From a virus, in IMG/VR virus record IMGVR_UViG_3300017766_003987, positions 32,001 to 96,000 of that record: a DNA stretch of 64,000 bases. One strand, 5' to 3'. The notes beneath the pieces were generated by a model. That model searched no databases, was not told the DNA's origin, and saw only the letters and a program-made list of their open reading frames with translations. Each line of letters begins with the position of its first letter. Position 1 is the first letter of the stretch. Both the position numbers and the translations under genes were made by a program. Shown here in pieces: positions 2,619 to 60,793 of this stretch.

Positions 2619-2857
2619 TGGGCGACAAGATCTCAGAGGCGATCAGCATTCGAGCGGCAAACGTCGGTCGAAAGCAGCGGCGTAACGAATTGCGTCCACA
2701 GGTAGCAGCCACCATTTACGCGGGTTACATCACCACTCGCCAAGGAATGGAACCGCGCAATAAAGATCTAGCGATGGCTGTTGCAATCGAAGACGCTGAT
2801 CTTTTGCTGTTGAAGCTTTTTCCGATTTTGCCCGAGGTCGATCCCAGCCATGAGTAG
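2618..2857 (+). CDS. hypothetical protein
   Basis: TGATG coupling to the upstream stop. Confidence 0.5.
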   Translation: MGDKISEAISIRAANVGRKQRRNELRPQVAATIYAGYITTRQGMEPRNKDLAMAVAIEDADLLLLKLFPILPEVDPSHE

Positions 2858-3149
2858 CATTCAACTCAATTTCATGCCGCATCCGTTGGCGGGCCAGGTT
2901 CAGCCCTTGAGTGCCCCCGACGGCACCTCCCTCAACGTCATCCTTCCGCCTGATACCCAATACGCAGTGACGCGGAAATACAGCTTTCTGCTGATCCGCG
3001 AACCTGAGCTAGGGGGCTGGTTCACTTCGTGGCAGGATCGGTACGGCGGCGGCTCTGCCTCGAGCACGCGAGAAGGCCCCTTCCGTGATCGCTTCGCAGC
3101 CGAGGCTAATTGCAGGCGTATCTTAAAAGAGCTTGGGCAAAAGAATTAG
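2850..3149 (+). CDS. hypothetical protein
   Basis: ORF with GAGG SD in a tightly packed run. Confidence 0.55.
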   Translation: MSSIQLNFMPHPLAGQVQPLSAPDGTSLNVILPPDTQYAVTRKYSFLLIREPELGGWFTSWQDRYGGGSASSTREGPFRDRFAAEANCRRILKELGQKN

Positions 3150-3151
3150 GG

Positions 3152-3181
3152 GTTGCGTCCTTAGTCGAGACATGAGATAAC
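3152..3181 (+). promoter_or_regulatory. repeated early promoter, copy 1 (GTTGC-N16-TGnGATAA)
   Basis: TTGCGT-N17-GATAAC with extended -10 TG; same spacing at 5460, 7954, 34938, 35652. Confidence 0.7.
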
Positions 3182-3209
3182 AATCCTGTCGCAAACGAAA
3201 GGACATGAA

Positions 3210-57441: not shown

Positions 57442-57813
57442 TTAAGTCGGCGGTCCTATTGTTGCGATGAACTCTAGCCATTGCCGCTTACCATCTGGAT
57501 CAGTCGGTAGAGAGATCACATTAAGAAAGCGATTACCGCGACTCGGATCTTCTTTCATTGCCCAAGCGTTAGTGACTTTCACCGCTTCTTCTGACCAGCG
57601 CATCGTCACAATATAGGGTTGCACACCTTTGAGGTTGTCAGCGATGACAGATTCAGTCCCGGTACGTGGCGTAAGGTTGACACGAGCAGAAAAGACCTTG
57701 ACGAACGCCTGAGTGGGCATACCTGTGTTGCCCCAGCCGTCGGTGCCCGAACCCCGCGTCATGAAGTCAAAATCGTCTCGCAGTGCTCCCGCATATCGAG
57801 TAGCTTTAGGCAT
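57442..57813 (-). CDS. head-tail adaptor / head closure protein
   Basis: AGALR...DGWG...ESVIA..L.G; position. Confidence 0.7.
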   Translation of the reverse strand: MPKATRYAGALRDDFDFMTRGSGTDGWGNTGMPTQAFVKVFSARVNLTPRTGTESVIADNLKGVQPYIVTMRWSEEAVKVTNAWAMKEDPSRGNRFLNVISLPTDPDGKRQWLEFIATIGPPT

Positions 57814-58024
57814 TCTTTTTCACCTTACTCGCGATCCTGGCTGCAACGCCTGCGTTGGGAATAACTTCTTGCGTAGGAACAGCAACCCCTTTAGCGATTG
57901 CTTTTTCAGCACACTCGAGACGAACCACAGCGACCTGACCCGCTAAATAGGCAATCGTTATGCTCGGCTTCGGCAGATAGTCGAAGTCTTTGATAAACCT
58001 AACTCGGCGAGAGGTCCGTTCCAT
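57806..58024 (-). CDS. hypothetical protein
   Basis: VRFIKDFDY..IAY.AG motif in the head-tail region. Confidence 0.55.
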   Translation of the reverse strand: MERTSRRVRFIKDFDYLPKPSITIAYLAGQVAVVRLECAEKAIAKGVAVPTQEVIPNAGVAARIASKVKKNA

Positions 58025-58380
58025 CAGGCAAGAGTCGGATCACGCAGACGCCAAAGAAGCGAAGCAATCGGGTTTGCAATGTTCGCCGGAATCGTGTTAG
58101 ATAACCCGCTGAGCCAAGCGGCAGAAGACCCATCAGGGCTATCGTCCAGAAGAGCGCGTACCGTAAGGATAACCGCTGAGGTAACTCTAGGCGGAACTGG
58201 ATTGTCTTCATCTTCAATATCCCAATCCGCTTTTGCAGCAACTGTAACAAAATCAAGCACGATATCTTCAGCCTGCTCGATCTTCATTACAATATCGTCA
58301 TAGCGATCCCCCGTCGCAGTCTGAAGGTTCAGACCGAGACGGAGCGCCATGTTCACTTGTGCGACAGTAACGAGTGCCAT
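58024..58380 (-). CDS. head-tail connector (gp6-like)
   Basis: LVT..V..AL..AEDIVLDF..VPP.V..LLWRLRDPTLA. Confidence 0.75.
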   Translation of the reverse strand: MALVTVAQVNMALRLGLNLQTATGDRYDDIVMKIEQAEDIVLDFVTVAAKADWDIEDEDNPVPPRVTSAVILTVRALLDDSPDGSSAAWLSGLSNTIPANIANPIASLLWRLRDPTLA

Positions 58381-58381
58381 T

Positions 58382-60793
58382 TTACCCTTCCAGCTTCACA
58401 GAGGACGCCGGACCCTTCGGTTCGACAGGACGATCCTTGCCGTCACGACCCTTCTTCACAGCCAGGCGCCATTCATCGCCAGTGCCCGGCTTTTCAGATG
58501 TATGCTTCTGAGCAATCCAGAACGACCCACCAAAAGTGACACCATCCGACTTGAGATACGAAGTGCCGTCCTTATAGACGCCCTTGTCGCTCAGCATCGG
58601 CACAAAGAATTTCCATTCCTTGAGGTTATCGCCCTTGCCTGCGTAAATCACGAGTTCCTTCTTGTCGTCGTCAAACTCAACGCTCATGTCATCGAATCCA
58701 ACGCCGTCAAGCCCGTCCTTCGGCCGAGGGATGGAATCGACGTGTTGCTTGATTGTCGCAGCAACAATGCCCATATCGACGTCTTGCCCATCGCGCCCGA
58801 TAACAGGCCCGAGCTGCTTCGCCTCGCCGTTCGTGAGAGTGACAACCAATTCACCGGCACGGTCGATAAGGGCACTCGCGAGACCGATACCGTCACGACC
58901 ATCCTTCGGAACAGGGATCTCGGCAACAGCTTTCGAAACCAGTTCAGTAAGAACAGGCGTGACCTCTTCGACGGTGATGCTCTTACCATCCTGTGGACGC
59001 GGGATGAGTGCAATTTCCTTGCGGATAGTCTCATCCACGACACCCATGTCAACGTCTTTGCCGTCCTGACCTTTGACAACACCAAGGTCAACCAGCTTGC
59101 CGTCACTATACCAAAGGTTAAGACGCCCATTCTCGTGGAGCTTAACGTCGGTTATCCCAATCCCGTCCTTACCGTTGACAGGCGGAGGCAGCGCCTCAAA
59201 ACCCTTGAGAACATGCTCAGCGATAATCGCCTGAACTTCGTTGAGGTCAACGTTCTGACCGTCAGCGCCCTTAACCTTTCCAGCAACGACCTGCTCTTCC
59301 GTATCAAGAACCACGACTAAATCGCCGTGCTCGTCAACTTCGATTGTCTTGATACCCACACCTGGTTTGCCGTCAACAGGTTTCGGCAACTCGCTAACCT
59401 GAAGAGCAACCTCTTCAAAAACGATCTGCTTCAACAACGTCTGATCGATAACAGCGTCCTTACCGGCAGGCGCAGGCGGGATGGCTGCAACGACTTCTTC
59501 GATGGCGCTCTTGATCTGCGCATTGAGTTCAGCAAGATCGACTTCGTCAGCCTTGATTTTGCCGAGGTTCGTATGCCCGCCGTCGCCAATCTCGAGCCAA
59601 AGCTCGCCCAGATCCGAGATGTGGACGCTCTTGATGCTCACCGGCTCAGGAATCTGGATCGAGGCCATCTTTTCATCGATGTACAAAGCAGCCTTACTGA
59701 TGATCTGATCAACGTCGACTTCAGAAGCATCCTTACCGTTGACGCCATCTGTGCCATCTTTACCGACAACAAACCCAAGGCTCTTGAATTCGTCTTCGCC
59801 AGTCATCCTGACTTGAAGCTGACCATTTATAGCAAGCCGAGCTTCTTCGATGCCCTTGGGTACCGGGATAGCAGCAACCATCGCATCGAGCTCAGTGGAA
59901 ATCCACTTGCCCAATTCGACGCGGTCAACATCCTTGCCGTCTGTACCAACAACCTTGCCCAGATCGTAGTTCTTGCCGTCACTCATCGTGAGCGAGAGCT
60001 TCCCCTCGATCATACGGATATCCGTGATCGAAACAGGAACCGGCAACTCACCGACGGCGCGGTGCACTTCGTCCGAGATCTTGCCAACGGCCCAGTCGAT
60101 ATCGAAGTCGAGACCCTTCTCGCCATCCTTACCGTTCTGGCCATCTTTGCCATCACGCCCGTCCTTACCGATAACCTCGCCCAGATCGTGAAACAAATCA
60201 GAATCACTCAGCTTGACAAGCAGGTGGCCCTCATCCGAAAGAACGATCTTATCGATGCCGCGACCATCCTTCCCACTGATCGCTTCCACAGGAAGCGTGG
60301 AGACCTGAGATTCCAGAGCGTCAATGCGCTTAGCGACTTCGCCATCAACCCCGACAATTGCAGAGTTGAGATCTTCATTGATCTGTGCAAGCGTCTCGCT
60401 TAGCGTGGAAACGCTTTCAGCAAAGCCTGCTGAAACTTCTTGTAGCGAGGACGAAACTTCAAGCAGAGCTTTCGAATGTTGCGTATTCTGTTCCGCAAGC
60501 TCTTCGTGCACCGTGCCGACGGCTTTGTCGATCATGTCAACGAACGCCGAACGCTCGAGCGTCACTGCGGCAATGCGCTGGTCCACCCCGGCCAGCGCGT
60601 CATTGATCGCCTTCGGCAGGACTGAGGCAACCGCATCGCCGATCAGGGTTTTGTAATCGATCTTCGCCAAATCAGAAATCTGCGTCTCAAGACCATCGAT
60701 CCGCTTTACCAGCGGTTCAGTCTGATCCTTGAGAAAACGCTTGACTTCGGCTACGACTTCCTTGCCAAACGCGGCACCGTCGAAGTCCGTCAT
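58382..60793 (-). CDS. portal-adjacent protein with coiled coil, GKDG-linked repeats and a small C-terminal aromatic domain
   Basis: Seven or more GxGI..GxL...LGxVxGxDG repeats; DGVTFGGSFWIAQ..WRLAVKKGRDG. Confidence 0.7.
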   Translation of the reverse strand: MTDFDGAAFGKEVVAEVKRFLKDQTEPLVKRIDGLETQISDLAKIDYKTLIGDAVASVLPKAINDALAGVDQRIAAVTLERSAFVDMIDKAVGTVHEELAEQNTQHSKALLEVSSSLQEVSAGFAESVSTLSETLAQINEDLNSAIVGVDGEVAKRIDALESQVSTLPVEAISGKDGRGIDKIVLSDEGHLLVKLSDSDLFHDLGEVIGKDGRDGKDGQNGKDGEKGLDFDIDWAVGKISDEVHRAVGELPVPVSITDIRMIEGKLSLTMSDGKNYDLGKVVGTDGKDVDRVELGKWISTELDAMVAAIPVPKGIEEARLAINGQLQVRMTGEDEFKSLGFVVGKDGTDGVNGKDASEVDVDQIISKAALYIDEKMASIQIPEPVSIKSVHISDLGELWLEIGDGGHTNLGKIKADEVDLAELNAQIKSAIEEVVAAIPPAPAGKDAVIDQTLLKQIVFEEVALQVSELPKPVDGKPGVGIKTIEVDEHGDLVVVLDTEEQVVAGKVKGADGQNVDLNEVQAIIAEHVLKGFEALPPPVNGKDGIGITDVKLHENGRLNLWYSDGKLVDLGVVKGQDGKDVDMGVVDETIRKEIALIPRPQDGKSITVEEVTPVLTELVSKAVAEIPVPKDGRDGIGLASALIDRAGELVVTLTNGEAKQLGPVIGRDGQDVDMGIVAATIKQHVDSIPRPKDGLDGVGFDDMSVEFDDDKKELVIYAGKGDNLKEWKFFVPMLSDKGVYKDGTSYLKSDGVTFGGSFWIAQKHTSEKPGTGDEWRLAVKKGRDGKDRPVEPKGPASSVKLEG

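What the first reader, a model, noticed from the sequence alone, without database searches (positions are those of the whole stretch)
2695..60292. Octamer TCCACAGG is strongly over-represented and resembles a DnaA box
I located at least 24 copies. Forward: 2695, 10522, 14263, 15465, 17335, 20767, 23281, 30667, 39976, 40441, 47290, 53218, 60285. Reverse (CCTGTGGA): 5335, 8551, 12130, 13695, 15698, 20487, 26879, 34373, 38977, 42912, 58990. About 2 are expected for a uniform-composition octamer on both strands of 64 kb. Copies are dispersed, unpolarised, and fall both in genes and between them. The core TCCACA matches the DnaA box TTATCCACA. Possible roles are genome-wide protein-binding sites, DnaA titration, or nick or modification sites.
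Basis: partly seen in the sequence, partly recalled or inferred. Interest (0 to 1): 0.7.

Follow-up and report, generated by a model that had tools for sequence, protein, structure and literature searches.

The report
Genome-wide phage primase start-site word
A 107-kb phage of a Rhizobium-like host carries one DNA word about fifteen times too often, evenly spread on both strands. The word is most likely the start signal read by the phage's own DNA primase, not a DnaA box.

Summary
All 24 listed copies exist, against 1.4 expected. The whole 107,266-bp phage genome has 32, against 2-4 expected, and this is its most over-represented 8-mer. The excess survives a synonymous-codon null (15.5 +/- 2, maximum 22).

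The real word is longer: C-D-TCCACAGG-R-A-K. It occurs in all reading frames, in both orientations relative to transcription, and in intergenic DNA. Copies are spaced more evenly than chance.

It is not a host signal: 15 Rhizobiales and Sphingomonas genomes show background levels. It is not a DnaA box, because the flanks are wrong and there are no full boxes. It is not tied to the phage's 7-deazaguanine genes.

Related words sharing the template core 5'-TGTGG-3' are over-represented in every examined phage with a homologue of this phage's AEP primase-helicase. That includes Pseudomonas phage Kakheti25, which lacks DpdA. The words are absent from the examined phages without that primase.

The primase N-terminus models as the NrS-1/pRN1 type of prim-pol with a helix-bundle domain. 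Published template sites for those enzymes are 5'-GTG-3', with 5'-GTGG-3' among the best. My best reading, at about 0.6, is a grid of primase recognition and start sites. This is inferred and has no biochemical test.

Earlier follow-up notes of this scan reached the same reading for similar words on other phage genomes.

The parts
2695..2702 (+). word copy; inside CDS 2618-2857 (+), sense
5335..5342 (-). word copy; inside CDS 5191-5451 (+), antisense, read as Pro-Val-Glu
8551..8558 (-). word copy; inside CDS 8026-8715 (+), antisense, Pro-Val-Asp
10522..10529 (+). word copy; inside radical-SAM (QueE-like) CDS 9964-10695, sense
12130..12137 (-). word copy; spans the junction of CDS 11677-12126 (QueD) and CDS 12133-12990
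13695..13702 (-). word copy; inside CDS 13561-13980 (+), antisense
14263..14270 (+). word copy; inside RtcB-like CDS 14018-15202, sense
15465..15472 (+). word copy; intergenic
15698..15705 (-). word copy; inside CDS 15518-15796 (+), antisense, Pro-Val-Asp
17335..17342 (+). word copy; inside DpdA-like CDS 17082-17984, sense; kept at the homologous place in Rhizobium phage RHEph04
20487..20494 (-). word copy; inside CDS 20115-20798 (+), antisense
20767..20774 (+). word copy; inside CDS 20115-20798 (+), sense, 280 bp from the previous copy and pointing away from it
23281..23288 (+). word copy; intergenic, 8 nt before the start of CDS 23297-23530
26879..26886 (-). word copy; inside DNA polymerase CDS 24914-27202, antisense
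30667..30674 (+). word copy; intergenic, 4 nt before tRNA-Lys 30679-30753
34373..34380 (-). word copy; inside CDS 34248-34577 (+), antisense
38977..38984 (-). word copy; intergenic
39976..39983 (+). word copy; intergenic by my gene calls
40441..40448 (+). word copy; inside CDS 40286-40504 (+), sense
42912..42919 (-). word copy; inside CDS 42419-43390 (-), sense
47290..47297 (+). word copy; intergenic between two - strand genes
53218..53225 (+). word copy; intergenic by my gene calls
58990..58997 (-). word copy; inside CDS 58382-60793 (-), sense
60285..60292 (+). word copy; inside CDS 58382-60793 (-), antisense, Pro-Val-Glu

Best explanation
The word is the recognition and start site of the phage's own primase. 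That enzyme is an 802-aa AEP primase-helicase encoded at genome bases 16844-19252 on the - strand, about 13 kb upstream of the window.

Read on the template strand, the word is 5'-(c-t-t)-C-C-T-GTGG-A-N-G-3'. The helix-bundle domain of the primase would bind GTGG and its 3' flank on single-stranded DNA. The catalytic domain would start the primer opposite the invariant T just 5' of GTGG. The primer would then begin 5'-A-G-G-R-A-K.

Because this primase needs a long word, the genome has been selected to hold a copy every few kilobases on each strand. These copies would serve as priming sites for discontinuous DNA synthesis.

Shown:
- the excess, its frame and strand independence, and the even spacing;
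- the occurrence of a TGTGG-core word in every examined phage with the primase homologue;
- the fold of the primase.

Inferred:
- that primers start at the word.
For: 1. The signal acts at the DNA level. There are 32 copies against 2-4 expected, and the excess survives the codon-aware null. Copies lie in three sense frames, in antisense and in intergenic DNA.

2. The spacing is even, both overall and per strand. The + strand of this genome gives P 0.001. Both strands of Kakheti25 give P<0.001. The majority strands of G033 and RHEph04 give P<=0.002.

3. Individual sites turn over while density is kept. Of the four G000 sites that could be aligned across the word in G016 or RHEph04, two are kept in at least one of them.

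4. Words with the same template core, 5'-TGTGG-3', are over-represented on both strands in other phages:
- G016: CCACAGGG, 36 against 1.3 expected;
- RHEph04;
- JenP1-like coliphage contigs: TGACCACA, 13-15 per 20 kb;
- L144, L143 and L146 (the last at 62% GC);
- G026 and G033;
- Kakheti25: TGCCCACA, 19 against 0.2;
- Loki.

5. Every one of these for which the whole or nearly whole record was searched holds a homologue of the primase. Phages with other parts of the module but no such primase lack the word. These are RHph_TM3_3_13, G041 and G044.

6. The primase matches phrog_3022 'DNA primase' at E 7e-105. Residues 10-184 match NrS-1 prim-pol at E about 1e-23. An AlphaFold model of residues 1-340 (pLDDT 79) aligns over about 293 columns with NrS-1 N300, which is prim-pol plus helix bundle, at E 7e-17. 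It also aligns with pRN1 prim-pol plus helix bundle.

7. Published biochemistry (PMC8718748) fits. NrS-1 prim-pol and pRN1 ORF904 recognise template 5'-GTG-3' through the helix-bundle domain. For NrS-1, 5'-GTGG-3' and 5'-GTGA-3' are the most efficient sites. Synthesis starts at the first base 5' of the site.

8. In RHEph04, eight TGTGG/CCACA words cluster in AT-rich non-coding DNA directly after the primase gene. In NrS-1, eleven AAAGTGTAACC words cluster directly after its primase gene, and they contain the published TTTGGTTA site.
Against: There is no biochemical or in vivo evidence for any phage of this group.

The primase is inherited together with a DEAD-box helicase, a Cas4-type exonuclease, an SSB and a Sak4-like ATPase. 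NrS-1 also has a helicase, a RecB-like nuclease and an SSB. Co-occurrence therefore cannot separate the primase from these partners.

The negative cases are few, and their shared genes are also more distant.

Known AEP sites are 3-4 nt long, or 8 nt in one case. A 10-13-nt requirement is unprecedented.

The sites show no strand switch that would mark a single bidirectional origin.

G000 and G016 have AT-rich non-coding DNA after the primase gene that lacks the word.
Confidence: 0.6

Rival explanations
1. The reader is the same protein but the mode differs. The words would be dispersed mini-origins: double-stranded binding sites where the primase-helicase loads itself and starts replication. 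This would resemble the iterons bound by phage P4 alpha or SaPI Rep proteins.
For: In NrS-1, phi105 and RHEph04, clustered words lie directly after the primase gene, as origin iterons do. Even spacing would also suit multiple origins.
Against: G000 and G016 have an AT-rich, origin-like region after the primase gene with other repeats and no copy of the word. The conserved core is exactly the single-strand template site of the helix-bundle domain. The word is asymmetric and its spacing is regular on each strand taken separately, which fits a strand-specific signal.
Confidence: 0.12
2. Another protein of the shared replication and recombination module reads the word. One example is a Chi-like signal that tames the Cas4-type exonuclease or directs Sak4-dependent recombination. 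Another is a helicase loading or pausing site.
For: The DEAD-box helicase, Cas4-type exonuclease, SSB and Sak4-like ATPase are annotated in Kakheti25 and Loki. The first three are also annotated in RHEph04. All four have matches in this genome. Even spacing on both strands would suit a protective or recombination signal.
Against: RHph_TM3_3_13 has a related polymerase, a Cas4-like protein and a helicase, but no AEP primase and no such word. No sequence specificity is known for these families. By contrast, the GTG/GTGG specificity of this primase type is published.
Confidence: 0.12
3. The word marks sites of a covalent change in virion DNA. This would be either a site-specific nick, as in T5, phiKMV or tf, or insertion of a 7-deazaguanine by the phage DpdA.
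For: The phage encodes FolE, QueC, QueD, a QueE-like radical-SAM protein and a DpdA homologue. Nick-site words in phage tf have a similar density (my own knowledge, not checked here).
Against: Kakheti25 has no Que or DpdA genes in its whole annotated genome, yet has TGCCCACA 19 times against 0.2 expected. Loki shows no Que genes in the 28.6 kb seen and also has a word. The DpdA-bearing records G041 and G044 lack a dispersed TGTGG word. Known phage DpdA targets are short, GA and GGC (abstracts listed). Known nick words sit on one strand only, whereas this word is on both. No candidate nickase was identified.
Confidence: 0.06
4. Host DnaA binds the TCCACA core, and the phage titrates or recruits DnaA.
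For: TCCACA is the right half of the DnaA box. E. coli oriC box R1 happens to read TTATCCACAGGG, as seen in oligonucleotides quoted.
Against: There are no full boxes and only 3 relaxed ones. C at box position 2 in 31 of 32 copies, G at position 3 in 18 of 32, and the invariant GG lie outside the box consensus. TCCACA not followed by GG is rare, 23 of 55. Relatives in four host groups replace the essential T of the box by A or C.
Confidence: 0.02
5. The word is a host-level signal copied by the phage, such as Chi, an uptake sequence or a chromosome-organising word.
For: The density of about one copy per 3.3 kb resembles that of Chi in E. coli (my own knowledge).
Against: Fifteen Rhizobiales and Sphingomonas genomes carry the word once per roughly 50 kb, the same as a reversed control word. 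Eighty loci with a homologous portal gene show no excess. The core is shared by phages of unrelated hosts, while the flanks differ by phage lineage. The true host is unknown, so the test is incomplete.
Confidence: 0.02

Closest known systems
Template recognition sites of phage NrS-1 primase-polymerase (5'-GTGG-3', 5'-GTGA-3', 5'-TTTGGTTA-3'; PMC8718748)
   Same: The enzyme type is homologous: phmmer E about 1e-23, and the fold match covers prim-pol plus helix bundle. The word contains 5'-GTGG-3'. In NrS-1, synthesis starts at the base 5' of the site, and here that base is an invariant T.
   Different: The NrS-1 sites are 3-4 nt or one 8-mer. In its genome the natural words are clustered in about 300 bp after the primase gene. 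Here the word is 10-13 nt, dispersed over 107 kb on both strands and evenly spaced. This phage also has a separate family A DNA polymerase and clamp-like factor. No biochemistry exists for this enzyme.
pRN1 ORF904 prim-pol, template motif 5'-GTG-3' read by its helix-bundle domain
   Same: Same domain plan, with fold matches to 3M1M and 9AAM. Same GTG core.
   Different: It belongs to an archaeal plasmid and its sequence is very distant (11% identity). It has a 3-nt motif with no reported genome-wide enrichment.
T7 gp4 primase sites 5'-(G/T)(G/T)GTC-3'
   Same: The logic is the same: a phage primase starts lagging-strand primers at a fixed template word whose 3' part is not copied.
   Different: The enzyme is unrelated (DnaG/TOPRIM type with a zinc finger). 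Its 5-nt word is frequent by chance, so no comparable selection for extra copies is known to me.
DnaA box TTATNCACA
   Same: Shares the hexamer TCCACA.
   Different: Box positions 1-3 do not fit. The invariant GG lies outside the box. Relatives lose the essential T. Copies are dispersed rather than clustered at an origin.
Over-represented strand-specific words of other kinds: Chi (RecBCD/AddAB) and the nick-site words of phages T5, phiKMV and tf
   Same: They are short asymmetric words at about one per few kb, read by a DNA-processing enzyme.
   Different: Chi is a host word and is polarised. Nick words lie on one strand. This word is specific to the phage lineage, lies on both strands, and follows a primase gene.

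Membership tests
Recognition/start site of an AEP prim-pol with helix-bundle domain (NrS-1 / pRN1 type) | The genome encodes such a primase: AEP catalytic domain followed by a helix-bundle domain | tested here: met
   The 802-aa protein at genome 16844-19252 (-) matches phrog_3022 at E 7e-105 and NrS-1 prim-pol at E about 1e-23. The AlphaFold model of residues 1-340 aligns over about 293 columns with NrS-1 N300 and with pRN1 prim-pol plus helix bundle.
Recognition/start site of an AEP prim-pol with helix-bundle domain (NrS-1 / pRN1 type) | The word contains the template motif 5'-GTG-3' (GTGG or GTGA are best for NrS-1) | tested here: met
   The reverse complement of the word is CCT-GTGG-A. All related words share TGTGG. 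The published specificity is in PMC8718748.
Recognition/start site of an AEP prim-pol with helix-bundle domain (NrS-1 / pRN1 type) | The word occurs where the primase occurs and not elsewhere | tested here: inconclusive
   All examined records with the primase homologue show a TGTGG-core word. The records are G000, G016, G017, G026, G028, G030-G034, G036, G037, Kakheti25 and Loki. RHph_TM3_3_13, G041 and G044 have neither the primase nor the word. The primase is co-inherited with a helicase, a Cas4-type nuclease and an SSB, so the test does not isolate it.
Recognition/start site of an AEP prim-pol with helix-bundle domain (NrS-1 / pRN1 type) | Primers are actually started at the word | not testable with these tools
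   This needs a primase assay or mapping of nascent-strand 5' ends.
DnaA box | Fit to the 9-mer TTATNCACA, especially T at positions 2 and 4 | tested here: not met
   Position 2 is C in 31 of 32 copies and position 3 is G in 18 of 32. The genome has 0 copies of TTATCCACA and 3 of TT[AT]TNCACA. Related words have A or C at position 4.
DnaA box | Binding by host DnaA | not testable with these tools
Host-level over-represented word (Chi, uptake sequence) | The same word is over-represented in the host chromosome | tested here: not met
   Each of 15 Rhizobiales and Sphingomonas genomes carries about 60-145 copies in 4-7 Mb, close to a reversed control word. The true host is unknown, so the test uses candidate hosts only.
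Phage nick-site word (T5, phiKMV, tf) | Sites lie on one strand only, and nicks are present in virion DNA | tested here: not met
   The word is on both strands, 20 on + and 12 on -. The presence of nicks cannot be tested with these tools.
Target of phage DpdA (7-deazaguanine insertion) | The word co-occurs with dpdA and the que genes | tested here: not met
   Kakheti25 has no such genes but has the word. DpdA-bearing G041 and G044 lack a dispersed word.
Origin iterons of a primase-helicase (P4 alpha, NrS-1, phi105 type) | Copies are clustered within a few hundred bp next to the primase gene | tested here: not met
   In G000 the copies are dispersed, with gaps of 233-6776 bp. The AT-rich region after the primase gene holds none. 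Clustering is seen in NrS-1, phi105 and RHEph04.

The most novel reading that the evidence does not exclude
A large clade of phages carries an NrS-1-like AEP primase-helicase. Its hosts range from Rhizobium to Escherichia, Pseudomonas and Acinetobacter. In this clade the primase would need an 8-13-nt template word (T-GTGG plus lineage-specific flanks). Each genome would have evolved an evenly spaced grid of that word on each strand. The genome sequence itself would then fix where Okazaki fragments begin, and the word and the helix-bundle domain would co-evolve lineage by lineage.
Probability: 0.5. Interest if true: 0.75.

Novelty: new variant of a known kind. Interest (0 to 1): 0.62.

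Why it matters
Primase recognition words are known. A long, lineage-specific word selected genome-wide and evenly spaced on each strand is not something I could find described for AEP-type phage primases.

If the reading is true:
- Lagging-strand initiation in these phages would be hard-wired in the genome sequence.
- It would explain a strong compositional oddity seen in many phage genomes, including therapeutic Pseudomonas, Acinetobacter and coliphage groups.
- It would give a direct, cheap prediction of primase specificity from sequence alone.
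- It would offer a natural system for studying how a helix-bundle domain reads DNA and co-evolves with its sites.

It also warns annotators that such words are not DnaA boxes, uptake signals or promoters.

Tried and rejected
1. Chance or composition. Rejected by dinucleotide shuffles, Markov orders 0-4 and synonymous-codon shuffles.

2. Promoter, RBS or terminator. Rejected because copies lie in both orientations relative to genes and inside coding sequence in several frames. In contrast, the second over-represented word, AAGGAACCCC, is a plain ribosome-binding context 4-8 nt before start codons.

3. Link to the head and tail module. Rejected: 80 loci with a portal 60-70% identical show no excess.

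4. Host signal. Not enriched in 15 candidate host genomes.

5. DpdA target. This was my working idea. It was rejected by Kakheti25 and Loki.

6. A strand switch marking one origin. None was seen.

7. Searches that gave nothing:
- The search for related loci with the primase alone found no close relative.
- Literature searches for the word, for TGACCACA, and for over-represented primase sites in phages found no prior description.

8. Some top words in other DpdA-bearing loci are unrelated things and were set aside:
- CACAGGAG before ATG in L150 and L151 is a ribosome-binding site.
- TCGTCCA in L152 and L153 lies on one strand only and reflects coding bias.
- The CAG repeats in L134.

Full report
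**What is there**

Dinucleotide-preserving shuffles give 1.4 +/- 1.2 copies.

The window is bases 32001-96000 of a 107,266-bp virus record rated complete. The whole record has 32 copies, 20 on + and 12 on -, while the word read backwards occurs once. With the genome in the script box, Markov models of order 0 to 4 expect 1.7-4.1 copies. The word is the most over-represented and the most frequent 8-mer of the genome.

Aligning the 32 copies shows that the signal is longer than the octamer. C is at -2 in 31 of 32 copies, there is never a C at -1, and R, A (mostly) and G/T follow. The word is therefore C-D-TCCACAGG-R-A-K.

**Where the copies lie**

I made a self-trained gene map. It has - strand genes up to 19 kb, + strand genes from 19 to 72.5 kb, and - strand genes from there to the end.

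- Ten copies are intergenic and 22 are in coding sequence.
- Copies occur sense and antisense to genes.
- Sense copies use all three frames.
- Twelve of the 14 antisense copies are read as Pro-Val-Asp/Glu, the cheapest way to fit the word into a protein.

Shuffling synonymous codons within each gene, with intergenic DNA untouched, leaves 15.5 +/- 2.0 copies, with a maximum of 22 in 300 shuffles, against 32 observed.

The gaps between copies are more even than random: CV 0.61 against 0.95, P about 0.0015. The first 12,992 bases have no copy (P about 0.016).

**What kind of phage this is**

It is a siphovirus. The portal, tape measure and a GTA-like tail protein are closest to those of phages and prophages of Rhizobiales.

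The replication and nucleotide module comprises:
- an SNF2/DEAD-type helicase;
- a Cas4-type exonuclease;
- a DUF669 single-strand-binding protein;
- an AAA_24 (Sak4-like) ATPase;
- a clamp-like processivity factor;
- a family A polymerase;
- MazG;
- an 802-aa primase.

This module is shared with the Rhizobium myovirus RHEph04. The window also encodes the 7-deazaguanine pathway: a QueE-like protein, QueC, QueD, FolE and a DpdA homologue.

**Not a host word and not tied to the virion module**

Eighty loci with a portal 60-70% identical show no excess. Fifteen Rhizobiales and Sphingomonas genomes carry the word about once per 50 kb, like a reversed control word.

**The word follows the replication module**

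Two relatives found through the polymerase carry it. G016 is a 55-kb contig and has CCACAGGG 36 times against 1.3 expected, as G-[T/A]-CCACAGGG. RHEph04 has [T/A]-CCACAG-[G/A]-G.

Loci found through the DpdA homologue show related words, strand-symmetric and dispersed:
- TGACCACA in 60-kb contigs at 43-44% GC; one has the length of coliphage JenP1;
- TGACCACA again in a contig at 62% GC;
- T-G-ACCACAC in L144;
- TGCCCACA in L143/G033 (43 against 2.6) and in G026 (15 against 1.8).

All of them share CCACA, which is 5'-TGTGG-3' on the other strand.

No. Pseudomonas phage Kakheti25 has the same replication module but no que or dpdA genes. It still has TGCCCACA 19 times against 0.2 expected, and GCCCACA 30 times against 1.5.

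Acinetobacter phage Loki has the module and ATGTGGG 16 times against 1.3. DpdA-bearing records without the primase, G041 and the 273-kb G044, have no such dispersed word.

**Why the primase**

A search of the DpdA-bearing records with the 802-aa primase finds a homologue in every complete record that has a TGTGG word. Kakheti25 and Loki match its N-terminal 340 residues at E about 1e-30.

Rhizobium phage RHph_TM3_3_13 has a related polymerase, a Cas4-like protein and a helicase. It has no AEP primase in its 67.9 kb and no comparable word.

The primase matches phrog_3022. Its residues 10-184 match the prim-pol of phage NrS-1. An AlphaFold model of residues 1-340 (pLDDT 79) aligns over about 293 columns with NrS-1 N300, which is prim-pol plus helix bundle. 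It also aligns with the pRN1 prim-pol plus helix bundle.

The published work on NrS-1 (PMC8718748, read) states three things:
- pRN1 ORF904 and NrS-1 recognise template 5'-GTG-3' through the helix-bundle domain.
- 5'-GTGG-3' and 5'-GTGA-3' are the most efficient NrS-1 sites.
- Synthesis starts at the first base 5' of the site.

In every lineage except L144 the base 5' of GTGG is T, so the primer would start with A. In this phage the conserved G-G-R-A-K would be the first primer bases, and C-D-T would be the uncopied 3' flank of the site.

**Further links**

In NrS-1 itself, eleven AAAGTGTAACC words cluster at 17062-17371, directly after the primase gene. They contain the published 8-nt site. 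Phage phi105 has TGTTACTT iterons directly after its primase-helicase gene. RHEph04 has eight TGTGG/CCACA words in AT-rich non-coding DNA directly after its primase gene.

G000 and G016 also have AT-rich non-coding DNA after the primase gene, but with other repeats and no copy of the word. This speaks against reading the dispersed copies as origin iterons.

**Spacing and turnover**

The sites are evenly spaced per strand in several genomes: the + strand of G000, both strands of Kakheti25, and the majority strand of G033 and RHEph04. In Kakheti25 the orientations also alternate more than chance (24 runs against 15.4 expected).

Of the four G000 sites that could be aligned across the word in G016 or RHEph04, two are kept in at least one of them. 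Selection therefore acts on density and spacing, not on particular sites. This is what a grid of priming sites would look like. It would also suit other distributed signals.

**Limits**

Nothing here shows binding or priming. The primase is co-inherited with a helicase, a nuclease and an SSB, and the negative cases are few. A requirement for 10-13 nt goes beyond any AEP primase studied. I put the primase-site reading at about 0.6. The rivals are:
- a double-strand mini-origin mode of the same protein, about 0.12;
- another module protein as reader, about 0.12;
- a nick or modification site, about 0.06;
- DnaA, about 0.02;
- a host signal, about 0.02.

**Comparison with what is known**

Primase recognition words are textbook for T7. 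GTG recognition by helix-bundle domains of AEP prim-pols is published. A long, lineage-specific word enriched genome-wide and evenly spaced per strand was not found in the literature held here.

After I had reached this reading, a look-up of earlier notes of this scan showed that other follow-up agents proposed the same explanation for TGTGGTTA, TGTGGGCA and CCCACAG words on other phage genomes. Those are unchecked AI notes, not independent evidence. My own counts for TGTGGGCA-type and TGTGGTCA-type words agree with them.

Noticed in passing
window 2349, 5179, 5507, 8013, 19241, 29998, 31894 (+ strand) and about 10 more in genome 2-9 kb (- strand): The second over-represented word, AAGGAACCCC (16-17 copies), lies 4-8 nt before start codons in gene orientation. 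It is often preceded by a conserved 'tcgaaac..a' stretch. It is a shared ribosome-binding and leader context of early genes, not a dispersed signal.
   Followed up: partly
window 9964-13559 and 17082-17984; genome 29050-29595: A complete 7-deazaguanine set is present: a QueE-like radical-SAM protein, QueC, QueD, GTP cyclohydrolase I, a DpdA homologue (82% identical to that of RHEph04), and a YhhQ/Vut_1-like transporter homologue. The phage DNA probably carries a 7-deazaguanine base. Which G positions are modified is unknown.
   Followed up: partly
window 14018-15202, 19256-20113, 21046-22170, 22427-22888: Auxiliary genes are present: an RtcB-like RNA ligase, a PnuC-like NMN transporter, a nicotinamide-nucleotide adenylyltransferase and MazG.
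   Followed up: no
window 8927-9013, 28913-28989, 29451-29526, 30679-30753: There are four tRNA genes (Leu-taa, Met-cat, Asn-gtt, Lys-ttt). The stretch 27.6-30.0 kb has few ORFs. One copy of the word ends 4 nt before tRNA-Lys.
   Followed up: no
genome 16,480-16,843 (outside the window, just after the primase gene): AT-rich non-coding DNA holds short repeats (TACCCC-T-TA, CCCTATA, a GTT run). It is a candidate replication origin, and none of its repeats is the dispersed word.
   Followed up: partly
L179 (Nitratiruptor phage NrS-1) 17062-17371: Eleven copies of AAAGTGTAACC lie on both strands within 310 bp directly after the primase gene. They contain the only genomic copy of the published recognition sequence TTTGGTTA. 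This looks like the NrS-1 origin.
   Followed up: partly
L125 / Rhizobium phage RHEph04 50,780-51,110: An AT-rich non-coding stretch directly after primase gp75 holds eight TGTGG/CCACA words, including tandem ATATGTGGAA and CGTGTGGAA units. It is a likely origin.
   Followed up: partly
genome bases 3-14 and the last 12 bases: The 12-mer GGGAAGTCGCCG occurs at both ends of the record. This suggests a circular assembly or a short terminal overlap. No long terminal repeat was found.
   Followed up: no
genome 1-12,992: No exact copy of the word lies in the first 13 kb, which consists of small - strand ORFs. One A-variant, ACCACAGG, is at 3175.
   Followed up: no
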